DNA of 64,000 bases, from positions 1-64,000 of the IMG/VR virus record IMGVR_UViG_3300028797_000128. The stretch is one strand, 5' to 3'. Made by a program: the position numbers and the translations under genes. Shown here piece by piece: positions 1-45,895 of the stretch. The DNA is from a virus. Its lineage: Duplodnaviria > Caudoviricetes. Below the pieces are notes generated by a model. It had not been told where the DNA came from, ran no database searches, and was given only the letters and a program-made list of their open reading frames with translations. Position 1 is the stretch's first letter; every line of letters begins with the position of its first letter.

Positions 1-127
1 TTGGGTTCTCGCTGCCCACCTTGCATTGTAGTGAGTGAAGGAGAAATACCCCCCCACTGTAACAACGCTTGATAACATCCATGCCTTTAATCGGCAGATT
101 TGCTATCACTTTTATCTCGTTCTTCAT
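1..127 (-). CDS. C5-MTase TRD minigene I (G7 at 49-55, out of frame; runs off window)
   Basis: RBS AAGGAG, ATG 127, MKNEIKVIANLPIKGMDVIKRCYSGG; adding one G gives GISPSLTTMQGGQREP (TRD-like). Confidence 0.75.
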   Translation of the reverse strand, partial: MKNEIKVIANLPIKGMDVIKRCYSGGVFLLHSLQCKVGSENP

Positions 128-277
128 GTTTGCTCCTTATAAGCACTTTTGGCTCAGTGTTGCCACCTCTGCCTATGCCGTTTAACGTTGGTGCTGCCCC
201 CCCGTAGAGAATACGCGTTTTCTTTGAACGTGCCATTGAGGGCAGTCAAGCTCAATAATCTGTTTCAACTGATTCAT
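87..277 (-). CDS. C5-MTase TRD minigene H (G7 at 197-203, out of frame)
   Basis: RBS AAAGGA, MNQLKQ...KRVFSTGG; stops at 182 with G7; G8 gives AAPTLNGIGRGGNTEPKVLI... Confidence 0.75.
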
Positions 278-453
278 TACTGATCCTTTCAAGATACATA
301 TAGCTATTGCCACCTGTGTTGCCTACCGGCTGAGATACTACACACATCGCAGGTTTGTGGCTGCTATAAATTCTGTTCCCTTGCCTATATTGTTTGCCAA
401 AGTTAATAGTTCCTACCCCCCCACCAACTCAGGCGGAGGAGCGAGAGGGGTTG
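252..453 (-). CDS. C5-MTase TRD module G (G7 at 416-422, out of frame; no clear own start)
   Basis: PPPELVGG* with G7; G8 gives VGTINFGKQYRQGNRIYSSHKPAMCVVSQPVGNTGGNSYMYL... Confidence 0.65.
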
Positions 454-711
454 CTAAAAAGAAAGCTGTCTATCTGCGTTTGCAGCACGCTCATCGTAGC
501 ACTCGTAAGTCTCATCTTCCTGCGCTTTATAAAGGTGTTCTGCTAACAGTTCAATGCAGTTTGTTACGATACTGTTACCAGCCTGTCGGTAGAGTTGAGT
601 ATCACTCATACCTACCGCCTTGCACTTTTCTACATCTTCATTGGTAAAACCCATAAGTCTCCAACACTCAGTAGGAGTAAGTTTGCGGATAGCCCAATCT
701 TTAACGTTCAT
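454..711 (-). CDS. C5 cytosine MTase C-terminal subunit (motifs IX-X)
   Basis: IRKLTPTECWRLMGF (IX) and YRQAGNSIV (X); own RBS GAAAGGA. Confidence 0.9.
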   Translation of the reverse strand: MNVKDWAIRKLTPTECWRLMGFTNEDVEKCKAVGMSDTQLYRQAGNSIVTNCIELLAEHLYKAQEDETYECYDERAANADRQLSF

Positions 712-935
712 ACTATCATTCCTTTCGATTCTGTATATGTTACAATTACCTGCGGTAAGAGTGGGACAGGTTTGCCCCCCCTCTGAACTCTGCCACGACG
801 CAGCTTTGAGTTTGGATAGGACAAGTCAGCCACTCCACCATTCTCACAAAGGATATAACCTTGTTTTGTCGCTTGTCTTACCCTTATATAATCTTTACTT
901 TCATCGGGAGATAAGAGATCGTACACATCACTCAT
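708..935 (-). CDS. C5-MTase TRD minigene F (G7 at 775-781; G8 fuses it to the C-terminal subunit)
   Basis: IRVRQATKQGY...DLSYPNSKLRRGRVQRGG; -1 frame continues QTCPTLTAGNCNIYRIERNDS-MNVKDWAIRKLTP. Confidence 0.8.
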   Translation of the reverse strand: MSDVYDLLSPDESKDYIRVRQATKQGYILCENGGVADLSYPNSKLRRGRVQRGGKPVPLLPQVIVTYTESKGMIV

Positions 936-1101
936 TTTTATCTTCCTTTCTGACTTTCTTTAGAAGCACCCCGGTTCTTGCTTTCTGTTGATTGCTAACT
1001 CCGTTGTCGTATCTTGTCAAAATACAACTTGCATACTGCATAGGGCAAGGTTTATTCACAGTCATGTCCACCCCCCCTATGGTTATGTATTTGTCTGACA
1101 T
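928..1101 (-). CDS. C5-MTase TRD minigene E (G7 at 1071-1077, in frame)
   Basis: RBS AAGGAG; 57 aa MSDKYITIGGVDMTVNKPCPMQYASCILTRYDNGVSNQQKARTGVLL... Confidence 0.75.
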   Translation of the reverse strand: MSDKYITIGGVDMTVNKPCPMQYASCILTRYDNGVSNQQKARTGVLLKKVRKEDKNE

Positions 1102-1263
1102 TTCTTAGTTCTCCTTATTACAACGTGAGGCTTATTGCCCCCCACCCATAGTAATAACGGTTGGTGCAAGATATGCAACACTGTAAATCGCACCTCGTCC
1201 ACTTGCAAACTGACCGCTATTATTTGGAGTTTGATACACCGTCCCAATTACTTTGCTTGTCAT
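1083..1263 (-). CDS. C5-MTase TRD minigene D (G6 at 1138-1143, out of frame)
   Basis: RBS AAGGAG; MTSKVIG...IYSVAYLAPTVITMGGGQ*; G5 or G8 gives GNKPHVVIRR. Confidence 0.75.
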
Positions 1264-1401
1264 CAGTTGTTCTCCTTATCAATATCCTTTTGGCATCTTT
1301 GTAATCTCTTGCGGACAAGGTACATATACCCCCCCTACGGAATACAAACGCCCTTGTTGTTCATACATATTTGGCATCGTCATTAATATTTTTACTTTCA
1401 T
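1220..1401 (-). CDS. C5-MTase TRD minigene C (G7 at 1329-1335, out of frame)
   Basis: MKVKILMTMPNMYEQQGRLYSVGG; G8 gives GICTLSARDYKDAKRILI. Confidence 0.75.
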
Positions 1402-1539
1402 TTTTTACCAACACTTTCGGTGAATCTTTATAGTGAGTGGCTTTGAGAGTGCATAGCCCCCCCTGAGACTCCATACTTCTTGATTCTGATGTATCTTACC
1501 AGTAGATGAAACTACTCGACTCAACTGTTTTACTTCCAT
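1361..1539 (-). CDS. C5-MTase TRD minigene B (G7 at 1457-1463, out of frame)
   Basis: RBS AGGAG; MEVKQL...HQNQEVWSLRGG; G8 gives LCTLKATHYKDSPKVLV. Confidence 0.75.
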
Positions 1540-1646
1540 TGAACTACTCCTGTTGCACCAAATGTGCCTTTAGACTGTAAATTCTGAATAGCTGTTTTAG
1601 CATACTGCTGTTTAAGTGTGCGACAATATCCGTTCTGGTCATTCAT
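1530..1646 (-). CDS. C5-MTase TRD minigene A (38 aa, intact)
   Basis: MNDQNGYCRTLKQQYAKTAIQNLQSKGTFGATGVVQWK; overlaps the end of the N-subunit; preceded by G5 at 1655-1659. Confidence 0.65.
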   Translation of the reverse strand: MNDQNGYCRTLKQQYAKTAIQNLQSKGTFGATGVVQWK

Positions 1647-2607
1647 CGGAACTGCCCCCTATAGTGACATCGTTAGATGTATAGATAGGCTGATTGCAAA
1701 TAATGCCGTAATTAGGGAAGTCATTGCGTGTCTCATACAGCTCATTCCATAGTTCTTCTTCCTCTGAGAGTGTGCCGTTATTAGCCATCTCATCAAGTGC
1801 CTTGCCAGCAGCATCAGATGTGAGAATATACTTCTCATTCACATCAAAGTCAAGAACATGGAATAAACGTATGCCCGTATCAAATGCCTGTGGAAACTCA
1901 AACTTACCAGTGTCTACATCCTTGCGTATACTTACAGCAAATACGCGTTCCCGGTTCTGAGGTATGCCACAATCCTTTGCATTGACTATCTGCCAATAAG
2001 TGTTATAACCAATCTCACTGAGATAATCGCACCACTCATTAAACTGTGGCTTAAATCTCTGTGATACAAGATTCTTTACATTTTCAAGAAGTAAGAACTT
2101 CGGCAGAGTGTCTGTCTCTTTAGCCTTTGCGAGTAGGCGTTCTACTTCATAAAGCAAACCGCTTCGTGTCTTACCACGTTCAATGCCCTGAATCTGACCG
2201 GCGATGCTGATGTCGGTGCATGGGAACGAGTATGTTACAAAGTCTGCATAAGGCAATTCTTCTATCTTTGATATGTCTCCCATATTCTTAGAAAGAACTG
2301 ATGCCAGATAATACTTCTTTAAGTCTGCACTGTTGCGTTTCTTCTGCCAGTCATAAGCCTTGTTCTTCTCAAAGACATAGCCAATGTTACGACTTTCAAG
2401 GTACTCCACCATTTCATCTACGGGCGGATAATCATAGTTCTCAATAAGTTCTGGTGTAAGTCCACAGTGAACGGCAGCGTAGCTCACGATTGCATCTTTG
2501 TCAATCTCTGATGTTGCTATTACCTCAGTGTCAAATAAACCAGAGTTTTTAAATCCTCTGATCTGAGCACCTATGCCAGAAAATAATTCAATCATTGTCA
2601 ACTTCAA
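1639..2607 (-). CDS. C5 cytosine MTase N-terminal catalytic subunit (motifs I-VIII)
   Basis: ELFSGIG (I), SFPC (IV), ENV (VI), QNRERVF (VIII); lacks motifs IX/X. Confidence 0.92.
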   Translation of the reverse strand: MKLTMIELFSGIGAQIRGFKNSGLFDTEVIATSEIDKDAIVSYAAVHCGLTPELIENYDYPPVDEMVEYLESRNIGYVFEKNKAYDWQKKRNSADLKKYYLASVLSKNMGDISKIEELPYADFVTYSFPCTDISIAGQIQGIERGKTRSGLLYEVERLLAKAKETDTLPKFLLLENVKNLVSQRFKPQFNEWCDYLSEIGYNTYWQIVNAKDCGIPQNRERVFAVSIRKDVDTGKFEFPQAFDTGIRLFHVLDFDVNEKYILTSDAAGKALDEMANNGTLSEEEELWNELYETRNDFPNYGIICNQPIYTSNDVTIGGSSDE

Positions 2608-2890: not shown

Positions 2891-4174
2891 TTTTATTGCC
2901 GTTTCACCCACGTAGAATAGGCAAAAACTGGCTCTTTTTTTTAGAATAATTCGCAACCTTGAGCTTTGAAACCATCAATTGCTTCGTCCCATTGCTCGTC
3001 TGTCATCTCCATGATGTTCTGAAAGCACCCACGGCAAAGCAAAGTCTTTACATCTCTGCCAAAGTATTTGAGATTCATGGCTACGTCATCACCCGTGAAC
3101 TCAGTACAACCGCAGACGCATTGTTTCTTCTCTTTGTACTTGCGGTTCATCATCTTCTGAAACTCGTGATACTTGTTGGTGTATTCGTAAACTTCGCCCC
3201 ACATATTCTCTATGGCTTTGCTAAGTTTGGATTCATACTGTTTAAGAACATCTCTCTCAAAAACATAATCTTTTGCATATGGGCAACCACAACAACCAGT
3301 TCTTTTAAGTCCGTATTCTACATAACACTTACTATGAACCACATTAAATTCGTTACAATACTCCTGCCGATCTGCGTCGATGAATAATAAAATAGGAAGA
3401 AAATAATTAACCTTATGTTGTTTATTGAAATAAACCTGTTCTTTGTACACCGTTCTTCTTTCTCCGCCTTCAGCTTTTCTTACACCCATAATCATCAAAT
3501 CCGTTGGGAACTTTTTCATATAAACATCGGAAGTGTTTTTCTTAGCTCCTAAACAACACTTGTCTGATATTTTAAAGGGTGGCGGATTCTTCATTAAGAA
3601 CTCTTTTAGCCATGAATTACGGTTGATATTAAAGTGACTTCCTTCGCCCTTGCCATTAGTCCACCACAGCAAACCACACTTACAATTTGGGTACTTAGCA
3701 TAAAGATTTTCAAATGTATCATCTTCCCATTGAAAGCCATTAGACTGTAAACGCCATATCATATTGCTCACATTCTTACTAAGGAATGGAACGCCATACT
3801 TCTTATTACCTAAAGGAACAGGCACTTTTGCTTTCTCTCTGTGTATCTTAATGCCGTACTTCTGCTCAAGCCACTTGAGATGCTCCTTAGTTGCCTGATA
3901 CTCAATACCTGTATCAAAGAACACATAGCTCACAAAATGTGGCTCTGCCCTCTCGCACAGGTCAATTAGTATATCGCTATCCGCCCCGCCAGAGACAGAA
4001 CAGCAGACGTTCTTGCCCCCCCTACGAGCGTCGCCAAGAACTTGTTTTGTAAGGTCTATGGCTTGCTGTATTCTTTCGTTCATTTATTGTCCTCCTATTT
4101 CTAATTTGTTTCTTTGTGAGCCTAAAATAAAAGCCCGTAAATGCCTATTCTACGTTGCTAAATTGGCAATAAAA
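2891..4174. repeat. 33-bp imperfect inverted repeats flanking the PAPS-reductase-like gene
   Basis: 2891-2923 vs reverse complement of 4142-4174, 28/33 identical; related copy at 13312-13354. Confidence 0.8.
2941..4083 (-). CDS. PAPS reductase / adenine-nucleotide alpha-hydrolase family protein with C-terminal Zn finger
   Basis: SVSGGADS PP-loop, FDTG, GVRKAE, RTGCCGCP; in-frame G7 at 4016-4022. Confidence 0.8.
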   Translation of the reverse strand: MNERIQQAIDLTKQVLGDARRGGKNVCCSVSGGADSDILIDLCERAEPHFVSYVFFDTGIEYQATKEHLKWLEQKYGIKIHREKAKVPVPLGNKKYGVPFLSKNVSNMIWRLQSNGFQWEDDTFENLYAKYPNCKCGLLWWTNGKGEGSHFNINRNSWLKEFLMKNPPPFKISDKCCLGAKKNTSDVYMKKFPTDLMIMGVRKAEGGERRTVYKEQVYFNKQHKVNYFLPILLFIDADRQEYCNEFNVVHSKCYVEYGLKRTGCCGCPYAKDYVFERDVLKQYESKLSKAIENMWGEVYEYTNKYHEFQKMMNRKYKEKKQCVCGCTEFTGDDVAMNLKYFGRDVKTLLCRGCFQNIMEMTDEQWDEAIDGFKAQGCELF

Positions 4175-45829: not shown

Positions 45830-45895
45830 AAATGTGTAAAATATTTGCTATATTTTTGTGTGAGCAAGATAATAAATGAGTGATACAAGGGGGGA

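What the first reader, a model, noticed from the sequence alone, without database searches (positions are those of the whole stretch)
1..2607. Split C5 methyltransferase with an array of poly-G-switched TRD minigenes: candidate combinatorial phase-variable methylation system
Seen: the MTase is cut into an N-subunit (motifs I-VIII, 1639-2607) and a C-subunit (IX-X, 454-711). At least nine short TRD-like modules lie between and downstream of them, most with their own RBS/ATG overlapping the previous module. Eight contain a G tract. Six G7 (49, 197, 416, 775, 1329, 1457) and one G6 (1138) are out of frame, and all seven are restored at G8, giving e.g. VWSLRGGLCTL, LYSVGGGICTL, VFSTGGAAPTL, CYSGGGISPSL, RVQRGGQTCPTL. 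One G7 (1071) is in frame. The only other G7 I saw in the window is at 4016. Established: Bacillus phage MTases (SPR, phi3T, SPbeta) are multispecific via tandem TRDs in one chain; two-chain C5 MTases exist (M.AquI, M.EcoHK31I); G tracts are classic slipped-strand contingency loci. Inference: free TRD peptides act as exchangeable specificity subunits, each switched independently (up to 2^8 states), diversifying progeny methylation against host restriction. Programmed transcriptional slippage or -1 frameshifting is an alternative. I know no description of this architecture.
Basis: partly seen in the sequence, partly recalled or inferred. Interest (0 to 1): 0.96.

Follow-up and report, generated by a model that had tools for sequence, protein, structure and literature searches.

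The report
Poly-G-switched recognition minigenes of phage methyltransferase
A 106-kb rumen phage has its DNA cytosine methyltransferase cut into a constant core plus about ten tiny DNA-recognition genes, each interrupted by a slippery run of G whose length differs between near-identical phages. Each methylation specificity can therefore probably be switched on or off separately to dodge host restriction.

Summary
Seven G7 and one G6 tract (coding strand is minus) lie in window 1-1463. The other 61 kb holds only two G/C runs of 6 or more (Poisson P about 8e-14). I add a ninth switch, a G5 at 1655-1659.

Every frame break in the locus sits at a tract. Both halves of each module are under purifying selection (dN/dS 0.06-0.22). 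Most modules keep their own Shine-Dalgarno sequence and ATG. The architecture persists in a lineage whose core protein is only 73% identical.

Tract lengths range from G4 to G11 across 12 independent contigs and 4 laid runs. They differ in 5 of 7 site pairs with identical 120-nt flanks, which is the signature of a hypermutable contingency locus. 20 of 57 site-by-contig states are ON.

Two switches fuse a recognition domain (TRD) to the N or the C core piece. The others give free 47-75-aa TRDs. A complex model puts a free TRD in the canonical TRD pocket (ipSAE 0.91, best control 0.02), but this may reflect likeness to solved single-chain enzymes.

The closest ordinary relative (58% identity) is a single-chain multispecific methyltransferase. 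I found no publication of this design. This scan has already noted it in at least 26 other phage genomes. Trans-acting TRDs and the switching rate remain untested.

The parts
1639..2607 (-). N core piece of the C5 methyltransferase (motifs I-VIII plus the first half of TRD0), 322 aa
   Evidence: ORF; PF00145 E 4e-48, profile positions 30-195. Motifs FSGIG, FPC, ENV and QNRER read. dN/dS 0.03-0.07.
1655..1659 (-). Junction tract J0 (G5 here, OFF). G7 or G4 fuses the N piece to the distal half of TRD0.
   Evidence: Relatives carry G5, G6, G7 and G8. Natural 359-aa fusion at L015:4501-5577. Protein clusters of 353-361 aa.
1530..1654 (-). Distal half of TRD0 (contains a CRTL motif and a final beta-strand), read only when J0 is ON
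   Evidence: Versus L014-L018, pS is 0.16-0.24 and pN is 0-0.011.
1361..1539 (-). TRD1 minigene. G7 tract at 1457-1463 (OFF; ON at G8).
   Evidence: Natural ON form at L015:5571-5747, 59 aa. AGGAG precedes the ATG.
1220..1401 (-). TRD2 minigene. G7 tract at 1329-1335 (OFF; ON at G8).
   Evidence: G8 ON in L014, L016 and L025.
1083..1263 (-). TRD3 minigene. G6 tract at 1138-1143 (OFF; ON at G8 or G5). The tract sits in the second Gly-Gly motif.
   Evidence: OFF in all 5 contigs. Extra indel in L014 and a stop in L017. Deleted in L016, X4 and X8.
928..1101 (-). TRD4 minigene, 57 aa. G7 tract at 1071-1077 is in frame (ON).
   Evidence: ON in 5 of 6 contigs, as G7 or G4. G8 in run X3.
783..935 (-). 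Proximal half of TRD5. Its OFF-frame stop overlaps the ATG of the C piece (ATGA).
   Evidence: pN 0.008-0.033 against pS 0.15-0.36.
775..781 (-). TRD5 tract (G7, OFF). G8 would fuse TRD5 to motifs IX-X.
   Evidence: G6, G7, G9 and G10 occur in relatives; never ON in 5 contigs.
454..774 (-). Distal half of TRD5 followed by the C core piece. The C piece (motifs IX-X, 85 aa) has its own SD and ATG at 711.
   Evidence: PF00145 profile positions 274-323, E 1e-8. AAGGA precedes the ATG. 100 clusters of short homologues.
252..428 (-). TRD6 module. G7 tract at 416-422 (OFF; ON at G8). It has no ATG or SD, only TTG GTG directly before the tract.
   Evidence: Purifying selection, pS 0.195 against pN 0.025 versus L014. 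In L022 the homologue starts at an ATG inside the end of the C gene.
87..277 (-). TRD7 minigene. G7 tract at 197-203 (OFF; ON at G8).
   Evidence: The related cassette is ON (G8) in L020 and L025.
1..127 (-). TRD8 minigene. G7 tract at 49-55 (OFF; ON at G8). Its last 13 codons lie in the overlapping end of the record.
   Evidence: G8 ON in L020, L014 and X8. ON alleles at G5, G8 and G11 among protein clusters. 48% identical to a TRD of a single-chain enzyme.

Best explanation
The locus is a multispecific C5 cytosine methyltransferase broken into a constant core and an array of about ten target-recognition-domain (TRD) minigenes. The core is an N piece (motifs I-VIII) and a C piece (motifs IX-X), each with its own start.

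Nine of the ten TRDs carry a poly-G tract inside a Gly-Gly codon pair. Slipped-strand mispairing during phage DNA replication changes the tract length. This moves the second half of that TRD (with its T-L motif and closing beta-strand) in or out of frame. The switch is heritable, reversible and independent for each module.

At the first tract, the ON state extends the N piece by TRD0. At the TRD5 tract, the ON state makes a TRD5-IX-X protein. The remaining ON states give free TRD peptides of 47-75 aa. These are proposed to dock, one at a time, in the pocket between motif VIII of the N piece and the strand before motif IX of the C piece, and so set the sequence that is methylated.

A phage burst would then hold a mix of methylation patterns. 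This is bet-hedging between protection from methylation-sensitive restriction enzymes and exposure to methylation-dependent ones.

Shown: the anatomy, the tract polymorphism, the selection and the wider distribution. Inferred: the replication-slippage mechanism (by analogy with poly-G contingency loci), the trans-docking of free TRDs (model only) and the ecological purpose.
For: 1. Clustering. Eight G/C runs of 6 or more lie in 2.7 kb, against two in the other 61.3 kb; P = 8e-14. GGG makes up only 10% of Gly codons elsewhere, and none of 27 Gly-Gly pairs elsewhere is GGGGGG.

2. Frame breaks. Every frame break coincides with a tract. L025 and L020 differ at 5.1% of bases, and 8 of their 9 indels inside the array are at tracts.

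3. Polymorphism. Each site carries 2-4 length alleles across 12 contigs and across Logan contigs of 4 runs from 4 studies. The source sample, re-assembled by Logan, gives the same lengths as the window (records 1, 2, 5, 7). Tract length differs in 5 of 7 site pairs with identical 120-nt flanks, 8 of 10 with 1-3 differences, and about 68% of more distant pairs, so it is already saturated. In-frame alleles G5, G8 and G11 exist for TRD8, and G4 and G7 for TRD4.

4. Selection. dN/dS is 0.06-0.22 for the TRD pieces on both sides of the tract, each in its own frame, against 0.03-0.07 for the N piece. SD plus ATG precede 7 of 9 starts. L021 and L022, with an N piece only 73-75% identical, keep the whole design with G6-G10 tracts (the array of L022 was read through).

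5. Homology. TRD8 aligns to one TRD of L006, a 555-aa single-chain enzyme with four tandem TRDs (48% identity, E 9e-10). All N-piece homologues at 69% identity or more are 295-361 aa, while those at 68% or less are 405-561 aa, apart from a few short entries on short contigs (273-390 aa) that may be cut.

6. Docking model. N + C + free TRD8 + SAM gave ipSAE 0.91 (runs 0.91, 0.91, 0.93) against a best control of 0.02. That mark was reached by 58 of 80 solved complexes and 2 of 110 mismatched pairs. Partner pLDDT was at least 83, and the runs agreed in at least 96% of contacts. TRD8 residues 22-36 touch N residues 216-220 (QNRER). TRD8 residues 41-49 touch C residues 4-11.

7. Wider pattern. In 80 GTDB Firmicutes loci with this C-terminal region, G runs of 7 or more on the coding strand within 1.2 kb upstream of motif IX are 23 times denser than elsewhere (12 in 90.5 kb against 7 in 1.21 Mb).
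Against: - No read-level data. All runs served were Logan contigs, so switching within one clone was not seen. Co-existing tract alleles in run X3 and in the source sample sit on contigs that also differ by SNPs, so a strain mixture is possible.
- The ON share, 20 of 57 (35%), equals the 1/3 expected from neutral drift of tract length.
- TRD5 and TRD3 are ON in none of 5 contigs each. TRD3 has an extra indel or a stop in two lineages. TRD0 has a 7-nt deletion in the L020 lineage.
- TRD6 lacks a clear start in this genome.
- The docking score may come from memory of solved single-chain enzymes (M.MpeI, M.HhaI, M.HaeIII), and only one TRD was modelled.
- The free TRDs have no Pfam or PDB sequence hit, so no target sequence can be predicted.
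- No three-part C5 methyltransferase has been shown to work (my knowledge).
Confidence: 0.68

Rival explanations
1. Expression is set mainly at the RNA or ribosome level. Transcriptional slippage on the G runs, or ribosomal frameshifting, lets every TRD be made at a low level whatever the DNA tract length. On this view the DNA polymorphism is a side effect, not the switch.
For: In this genome six sites all need the same +1 base, equivalent to a -1 shift on G GGG GGG. Runs of G8-G10 occur in relatives and could slip during transcription (general knowledge). Purifying selection on the downstream halves, although most are OFF in the consensus, would fit constant leaky expression.
Against: The shift needed at one site differs between strains, for example TRD5 at G6, G7, G9 and G10, and J0 at G5, G6 and G8. 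No fixed recoding signal is therefore conserved. In-frame alleles are common: 20 of 57 states, plus many ON protein clusters. No RNA data could be laid.
Confidence: 0.12
2. The minigenes are a store of mostly silent cassettes. Specificity changes chiefly by recombination, which moves or deletes cassettes at conserved junctions so that a different TRD ends up next to the N or the C piece. The G tracts would serve as recombination or alignment points.
For: Relatives differ by whole cassettes at fixed junctions. TRD1 and 1', 3 and 3', 6 and 6', and 7 and 7' replace one another. TRD3 is deleted in L016, X4 and X8. X8 carries a 315-nt replacement and a 168-nt insertion. The junction before TRD4 (…KKCQTNT stop) is the same whichever cassette precedes it. 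J0 and TRD4 share the same …TIGG tract context.
Against: Seven of nine modules have their own SD and ATG. Natural ON free-standing ORFs are frequent. Tract length changes far faster than cassette content. Recombination and slippage are not mutually exclusive.
Confidence: 0.1
3. The array is a decaying remnant of a single-chain multispecific methyltransferase, and tract lengths drift neutrally in dead genes.
For: The ON share is about 1/3. Only TRD4 is ON in this genome. There are hard lesions in TRD3 and in the TRD0 of one lineage.
Against: dN/dS is 0.06-0.22 on both halves of the modules. Stops and indels are almost confined to the tracts. SD and ATG are kept. The tracts themselves persist at 25% protein divergence, although GGG is a rare codon here.
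Confidence: 0.05
4. The tract lengths are homopolymer sequencing or assembly errors, and the true genes are intact.
For: Six tracts in this assembly are all one base short of in-frame. Homopolymers are error-prone on some platforms (general knowledge).
Against: An independent assembly of the source sample gives the same lengths. L004 and L005, from two metagenomes, are identical over 12.9 kb including all ten tracts. Lengths range from G4 to G11 in both directions. One G7 is in frame, and in this genome the G5 and G6 tracts need +2. Across 2 kb of L025 against L020, no indel fell outside the G tracts apart from one 7-nt deletion.
Confidence: 0.03

Closest known systems
Multispecific C5 methyltransferases of Bacillus phages (M.SPRI, M.Phi3TI, M.Rho11sI, M.H2I, SPbeta; Trautner laboratory; from my own knowledge). 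Represented here by the 555-aa enzyme of L006.
   Same: A phage-borne PF00145 core, with several short modular TRDs, each carrying a T-L motif and a closing beta-strand, one per target. TRD8 is 48% identical to one TRD of L006. The presumed role is protection against several host restriction systems.
   Different: Those enzymes are one polypeptide with all TRDs always present. Here the TRDs are separate ORFs with their own starts, three of them lie downstream of motif X, and each is gated by a poly-G tract.
Two-chain C5 methyltransferases M.AquI and M.EcoHK31I, and fragment complementation of M.BspRI and M.HhaI (from my own knowledge)
   Same: The catalytic core is divided between motif VIII and motif IX into separately translated pieces that must assemble. 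The N-TRD0 and TRD5-C fusion states resemble the alpha and beta chains of M.AquI.
   Different: Those systems have two fixed parts and one specificity. Here up to three parts would have to assemble, with an exchangeable middle part, and which part is made depends on tract length.
Simple-sequence-repeat contingency loci in bacterial methyltransferase genes (phasevarions; poly-G tracts of Helicobacter and Campylobacter R-M genes; e.g. PMC7383803, PMC3936762)
   Same: A homopolymer inside the coding sequence, length polymorphism among close relatives, and ON/OFF by frameshift.
   Different: Those switch a whole enzyme, or one specificity subunit, of a cellular Type I, IIG or III system and act as gene regulators. 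Here nine or more switches sit in one phage locus and each gates one recognition module of a C5 enzyme.
Phage contingency loci: poly-G tracts in Fletchervirus receptor-binding genes (Sorensen 2021, cited in 10.1101/2025.10.21.683753); T2 and T4 contingency loci (same preprint); a poly-G tract in a methylase gene of Bordetella phage BPP-1 (Liu 2004, as cited there)
   Same: Hypermutable homopolymers in phage genes used for bet-hedging against the host.
   Different: Those are single tracts in single genes, mostly for host recognition. No array of recognition minigenes and no combinatorial methylation is described.
Type I R-M HsdS specificity subunits with phase-variable or shuffling hsdS genes (PMC7394358)
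   Same: In concept: a constant catalytic part plus exchangeable, switchable specificity polypeptides.
   Different: An unrelated fold and enzyme class (amino-methyltransferases). Switching there is mostly by recombination. HsdS is a stable scaffold subunit, not a 50-aa insert domain.

Membership tests
C5 cytosine DNA methyltransferase (PF00145) | Motifs I (FxGxG), IV (PC), VI (ENV) and VIII (QxRxR) in the large domain | tested here: met
   The N piece hits PF00145 at E 4e-48. LFSGIG, FPCTD, LENVKN and QNRERV are read in the ORF.
C5 cytosine DNA methyltransferase (PF00145) | Motifs IX (RxLTxxE) and X (GNS/A) at the C end | tested here: met
   The C piece hits profile positions 274-323 at E 1e-8. 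RKLTPTECWRLMGF and QAGNS are read in the ORF.
C5 cytosine DNA methyltransferase (PF00145) | All motifs and a TRD on one polypeptide | tested here: not met
   Separate ORFs with stops between them in all 12 contigs of the clade. Homologues at 69% identity or more are 295-361 aa.
Multispecific phage C5 methyltransferases (SPR type) | Two or more TRDs in tandem between motifs VIII and IX, each conferring one target | tested here: inconclusive
   Ten TRD-like modules are present and homologous to TRDs of a single-chain enzyme. They are not in one chain, three lie after motif X, and no target specificity was measured.
SSR contingency locus | A homopolymer inside the coding sequence whose length sets the reading frame | tested here: met
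SSR contingency locus | Length polymorphism among otherwise near-identical genomes, far above the point-mutation level | tested here: met
   5 of 7 pairs with identical 120-nt flanks differ. 8 of 9 indels between L025 and L020 are at tracts.
SSR contingency locus | Reversible switching measured within a clonal population | not testable with these tools
   Only Logan contigs were served. The mixed alleles in X3 and X2 are linked to SNPs.
Two-chain C5 methyltransferases (M.AquI type) | Separate genes for the I-VIII and IX-X parts, both needed for activity | tested here: inconclusive
   The gene split is met. The need for both parts, and assembly, were only modelled.
Programmed -1 ribosomal frameshift site | A fixed slippery site with the same required shift conserved among relatives | tested here: not met
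   The required shift at one site varies between +1, +2 and 0 among strains.

The most novel reading that the evidence does not exclude
C5 cytosine methyltransferases can work as three-part enzymes. A TRD-less catalytic core (N plus C pieces) accepts any of about ten free 50-75-aa recognition peptides in trans. Each peptide gene is an independent mutational switch, so a single phage lineage can explore up to about 2^9-2^10 methylation patterns. This would be a C5-enzyme counterpart of exchangeable Type I HsdS subunits, evolved in phages as combinatorial bet-hedging against both methylation-sensitive and methylation-dependent restriction.
Probability: 0.5. Interest if true: 0.9.

Novelty: new variant of a known kind. 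Interest (0 to 1): 0.85.

Why it matters
If the free recognition peptides work in trans, this is a new way to build a DNA methyltransferase: one core with plug-in readers. It would also be the densest set of contingency switches I know of in any virus. It would show that phages vary their own epigenetic coat stochastically, as bacteria vary their surfaces, and that would bear on how phages cope with the mix of restriction systems in gut and rumen communities. The small self-contained TRD modules could also serve as a natural parts list for programmable 5mC writers. Poly-G tracts are 23 times enriched in the variable region of related methyltransferases in Firmicutes genomes, and this scan has met the same design in at least 26 other phage genomes. 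So this looks like a widespread, undescribed strategy rather than a curiosity.

Tried and rejected
This includes P0055, which is seen on 662 contigs.
- DNA search of GenBank phages found nothing. A protein search there found nothing above 60% identity.
- Exact-pattern scans of IMG/VR found only the two known relatives.
- The free TRDs have no Pfam hit and no meaningful PDB sequence hit. The armadillo-repeat hits at E about 0.002 are spurious. No target sequence could therefore be assigned to any TRD.
- The automatic ON/OFF call by longest open frame chose the wrong upstream frame at several sites. I replaced it with an anchor-distance method.
- The tract at 4016 could not be compared with relatives, because none carry that gene.
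- No raw reads were served, so there is no read-level tract distribution.
- Depth holes at 811-1067 in the source run's contigs prove nothing.
- A fixed programmed frameshift, pure assembly error and simple pseudogene decay were considered and rejected, for the reasons given under the rival explanations.


Full report
**Where the window lies.** The window is bases 1-64000 of a 106,087-bp IMG/VR virus record rated complete. The last 138 bases of the record repeat its first 138 at 97% identity, so the record closes on itself. Sequencing runs that hold the stretch are bovine and goat gut (rumen-type) metagenomes from 12 studies. All genes of the finding are on the minus strand, so the "G tracts" appear as C runs on the plus strand.

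**Observation.** A scan of the whole window finds C7 at 49, 197, 416, 775, 1071, 1329 and 1457, and C6 at 1138.
- The only other G/C runs of 6 or more are C7 at 4016 and G6 at 45889.
- From the rate outside the locus, 0.09 runs are expected in 2.7 kb, giving P(>=8) = 8e-14.
- GGG is only 10% of Gly codons in the other long ORFs.
- None of the 27 Gly-Gly pairs elsewhere is written GGGGGG.

The clustering is therefore real and is not a codon-usage effect.

**Anatomy.** Reading the minus strand from 2607 downward:
- **N piece, 2607-1639.** 322 aa, PF00145 profile positions 30-195, with motifs FSGIG, FPC, ENV and QNRER. It ends …VTIGG SSDE-stop. A G5 at 1655-1659, missed in this finding, separates it from a frame that continues AVPMNDQNGYCRTL… (TRD0). 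G7 or G4 would fuse the two.
- **TRD1** (1539-1361; G7 at 1457).
- **TRD2** (1401-1220; G7 at 1329).
- **TRD3** (1263-1083; G6 at 1138).
- **TRD4** (1101-928; G7 at 1071, in frame).
- **TRD5** (935-783; G7 at 775). Its restored frame runs straight into motifs IX-X (774-454). In the G7 state the TRD5 stub stops at a TGA that overlaps the ATG at 711 (ATGA). That ATG starts the 85-aa C piece (PF00145 profile positions 274-323).
- **Downstream of the C piece:** TRD6 (428-252; G7 at 416), TRD7 (277-87; G7 at 197) and TRD8 (127-1; G7 at 49). TRD8's last codons lie in the overlapping record end, and the array stops there.

Each restored module has the classical TRD shape: a beta-strand, then …YS..GG..(P/C)TL…GG….K(I/V)(L/V)V. 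The tract encodes the Gly-Gly of either the first or the second GG motif. SD-like motifs (AGGAG or AAGGA) sit 6-11 nt before the ATGs of TRD1, 3, 4, 5, 7, 8 and of the C piece. TRD2 has none. TRD6 has only TTG GTG directly at the tract. In this genome only TRD4 is ON.

**Relatives.**
- IMG/VR holds two contigs from two metagenomes (L004, L005) that are identical to each other over 12.9 kb. Their N piece is 100% identical in protein to the window's.
- JGI metagenomes gave 13 more loci.
- The same array is present in all of them, with different tract lengths. For example, L004 has G6, G8, G6, G9, G7, G9, G8, G8, G8, against the window's G5, G7, G7, G6, G7, G7, G7, G7, G7.
- Natural ON forms exist for most modules: a 359-aa N-TRD0 fusion (L015), and free TRD1, TRD1', TRD2, TRD4, TRD6', TRD7' and TRD8.
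- L021 and L022, whose N piece is only 73-75% identical, keep the N piece and the first modules with G6-G10 tracts at homologous Gly-Gly positions. In L022, the only one of the two read through, the design is complete, with two extra modules and G7-G10 tracts.
- The nearest enzyme outside the clade (L006, 58% identity) is an ordinary 555-aa single chain with four tandem TRDs and no G tract. TRD8 aligns to one of its TRDs at 48% identity, E 9e-10.
- In a search of 5.8 billion proteins, all N-piece homologues at 69% identity or more are 295-361 aa (N alone or N-TRD0). Those at 68% or less are 405-561 aa, apart from a few short entries on short contigs (273-390 aa) that may be cut. The split form thus marks one clade derived from single-chain multispecific enzymes.

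**Are the tracts hypermutable?**
- Laying Logan contigs of four runs on the stretch shows that nearly all insertions or deletions relative to the window fall at the tracts. They are +1 at 48, 415, 1070 and 1137; +2 at 1456; +3 at 774; and +1 or +2 at 1654.
- The source sample's Logan contigs reproduce the window's lengths, so these are not an artefact of one assembler.
- Run X3 and the source sample each hold two alleles at several tracts. These sit on contigs that also differ by SNPs, so a strain mixture cannot be excluded.
- Between L025 and L020 (5.1% mismatches), 8 of the 9 indels inside the array are at tracts.
- Over all homologous site pairs, tract length differs in 5 of 7 pairs with identical 120-nt flanks, 8 of 10 with 1-3 differences, 27 of 39 with 4-8, and 28 of 42 with 9-24. 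Tract divergence is thus already saturated when the flanks have not changed at all.
- In-frame alleles three bases apart occur: TRD8 at G5, G8 and G11, and TRD4 at G4 and G7.
- Occasional interrupted ("locked") tracts also occur, for example GTGGGGGG in L014 TRD1'.
- By an anchor-distance method, 20 of 57 site-by-contig states are ON. This is close to the 1/3 expected from free drift. TRD4 is ON in 5 of 6 contigs; TRD3 and TRD5 in 0 of 5 each.

**Are the modules functional genes?**
- Nei-Gojobori estimates against nine relatives give dN/dS of 0.03-0.07 for the N piece.
- The pooled TRD pieces give 0.06-0.22. The proximal and distal halves were each counted in their own frame.
- The distal halves, out of frame in most consensus genomes, are therefore still kept as protein-coding sequence. 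This excludes simple pseudogene decay.
- Hard lesions are few: an indel (L014) and a stop (L017) in TRD3, loss of TRD3 in L016, X4 and X8, and a 7-nt deletion in the tail of TRD0 in the L020 lineage.
- Whole cassettes are also exchanged at conserved junctions (TRD1/1', 3/3', 6/6', 7/7').

**Can a free TRD work?** I modelled four components together: the N piece (alignment A2), the C piece (A1), a natural ON TRD8 of 52 aa (A4) and SAM.
- The score was ipSAE 0.91 (runs 0.91, 0.91, 0.93), against a best control of 0.02.
- That mark was reached by 58 of 80 solved complexes and 2 of 110 mismatched pairs.
- Partner pLDDT was at least 83, and the runs agreed in at least 96% of contacts.
- TRD8 residues 22-36 (the YSGGGISPSLTT segment) touch N residues 216-220 (QNRER, motif VIII) and 243-290.
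- The closing strand of TRD8 (residues 41-49) pairs with residues 4-11 of the C piece, just before motif IX.

This is where a covalent TRD sits in single-chain enzymes. Solved relatives (M.MpeI, M.HhaI, M.HaeIII) are single chains, so the pass may reflect that likeness. It shows compatibility, not binding.

**Mechanism proposed.** The N and C pieces are made constitutively. Each tract is an independent, heritable, reversible frameshift switch driven by replication slippage. Two switches add a TRD covalently (N-TRD0; TRD5-C), like the alpha and beta chains of M.AquI. The others release free TRDs that compete for one pocket. The set of ON modules would then define the set of methylated motifs in the progeny.

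A fixed programmed frameshift is unlikely, because the shift needed at one site differs between strains. Transcriptional slippage may add leakiness and was not testable.

**Wider distribution.**
- Among 80 GTDB loci (mostly Clostridia and Bacilli) that encode a related C end, G runs of 7 or more on the coding strand within 1.2 kb upstream of motif IX are 23 times denser than elsewhere in those loci.
- Examples are an intact enzyme with an in-frame G8 in Oribacterium asaccharolyticum ACB7, and a multi-TRD enzyme broken at two G8 tracts in a Bacillota MAG.
- A profile of TRD8 finds 1031 representative proteins. Among the best 150, 19 are 110 aa or shorter, and many full-length enzymes match in 2-5 stretches.
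- Relatives of this phage also carry a second, amino-type (NPPF) methyltransferase with a G7-G9 tract that is ON in two and OFF in two.

**Literature and earlier scan notes.**
- Full-text searches found phase-variable bacterial methyltransferases and phage poly-G tracts in Fletchervirus receptor-binding genes.
- They also found a 2025 preprint on phage contingency loci, which mentions a poly-G tract in a methylase gene of Bordetella phage BPP-1.
- No array of switchable TRD minigenes is described.
- This scan's own notes show the same design in at least 26 other phage genomes, including the L004/L005-type relative. Those are unchecked AI notes and are not counted as evidence here.

**Verdict.** The genetic-switch reading is well supported. 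Trans-acting TRD subunits are plausible and modelled, but unproven. I rate this a new variant that combines three known things: multispecific TRD modularity, split C5 enzymes and SSR phase variation.

Noticed in passing
window 1-138 and record end (L002:1501-1638): The record's end repeats its start over 138 bp at 97% identity. The four mismatches in the first 20 bases are all synonymous in the tail of TRD8 (GGQREP). This suggests two co-assembled strain variants at the closure point of a circular or terminally redundant genome.
   Followed up: partly
window 4016-4022 (gene 2941-4083, minus strand): The only other G7 tract of the window lies in frame (…ARRGGKN…) near the start of a 380-aa protein with a PAPS-reductase (PP-loop) domain (PF01507, E 1e-12), next to the methyltransferase. 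No relative carrying this gene was found, so its variability is unknown.
   Followed up: partly
L020:2283, L014:7615, L021:3832, L024:400: Relatives carry a second methyltransferase of the amino type (SNPPF motif), with a poly-G tract in …QTFK(R/Q/W)GG…. It is G8 or G7 in frame in two contigs and G9 out of frame in two. Tract switching in these phages is therefore not confined to the C5 enzyme. I did not look for this gene in the window's own genome.
   Followed up: partly
L020:3551-4414 and L020:7160-8068: The closest relative has an extra intact 287-aa C5 methyltransferase directly upstream of the split one, and a radical-SAM protein directly downstream of the array. The window's genome has different neighbours at these positions: a 65-aa ORF and the PAPS-reductase-domain gene.
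   Followed up: no
window 746-847 (minus strand); L014:6269-6652; L020:6244-6648: In the third frame an ORF (M…VEWL…AEFRGG) runs into the TRD5 tract. At G6 or G9 a 128-134-aa protein (half of TRD5 plus motifs IX-X) is therefore open. Gene callers report such proteins of 140-142 aa. It is unclear whether this third state is used or is a by-product of the overlapping frames.
   Followed up: no
window 1400-1406: A T6 run (A6 on the coding strand, just before the TRD2 ATG and inside the tail of TRD1) carries +1 in runs X4 and X8. In X8 this is paired with a -1 at 1422. It is the only recurrent non-G-tract length change seen.
   Followed up: no
L076:4453 (Oribacterium asaccharolyticum ACB7, NZ_JH414504.1): A cultured Lachnospiraceae genome encodes a related single-chain multi-TRD C5 methyltransferase with an in-frame G8 just after motif VIII (…VRKDRGGYSF…). 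This is a possible experimental handle for measuring tract switching.
   Followed up: no
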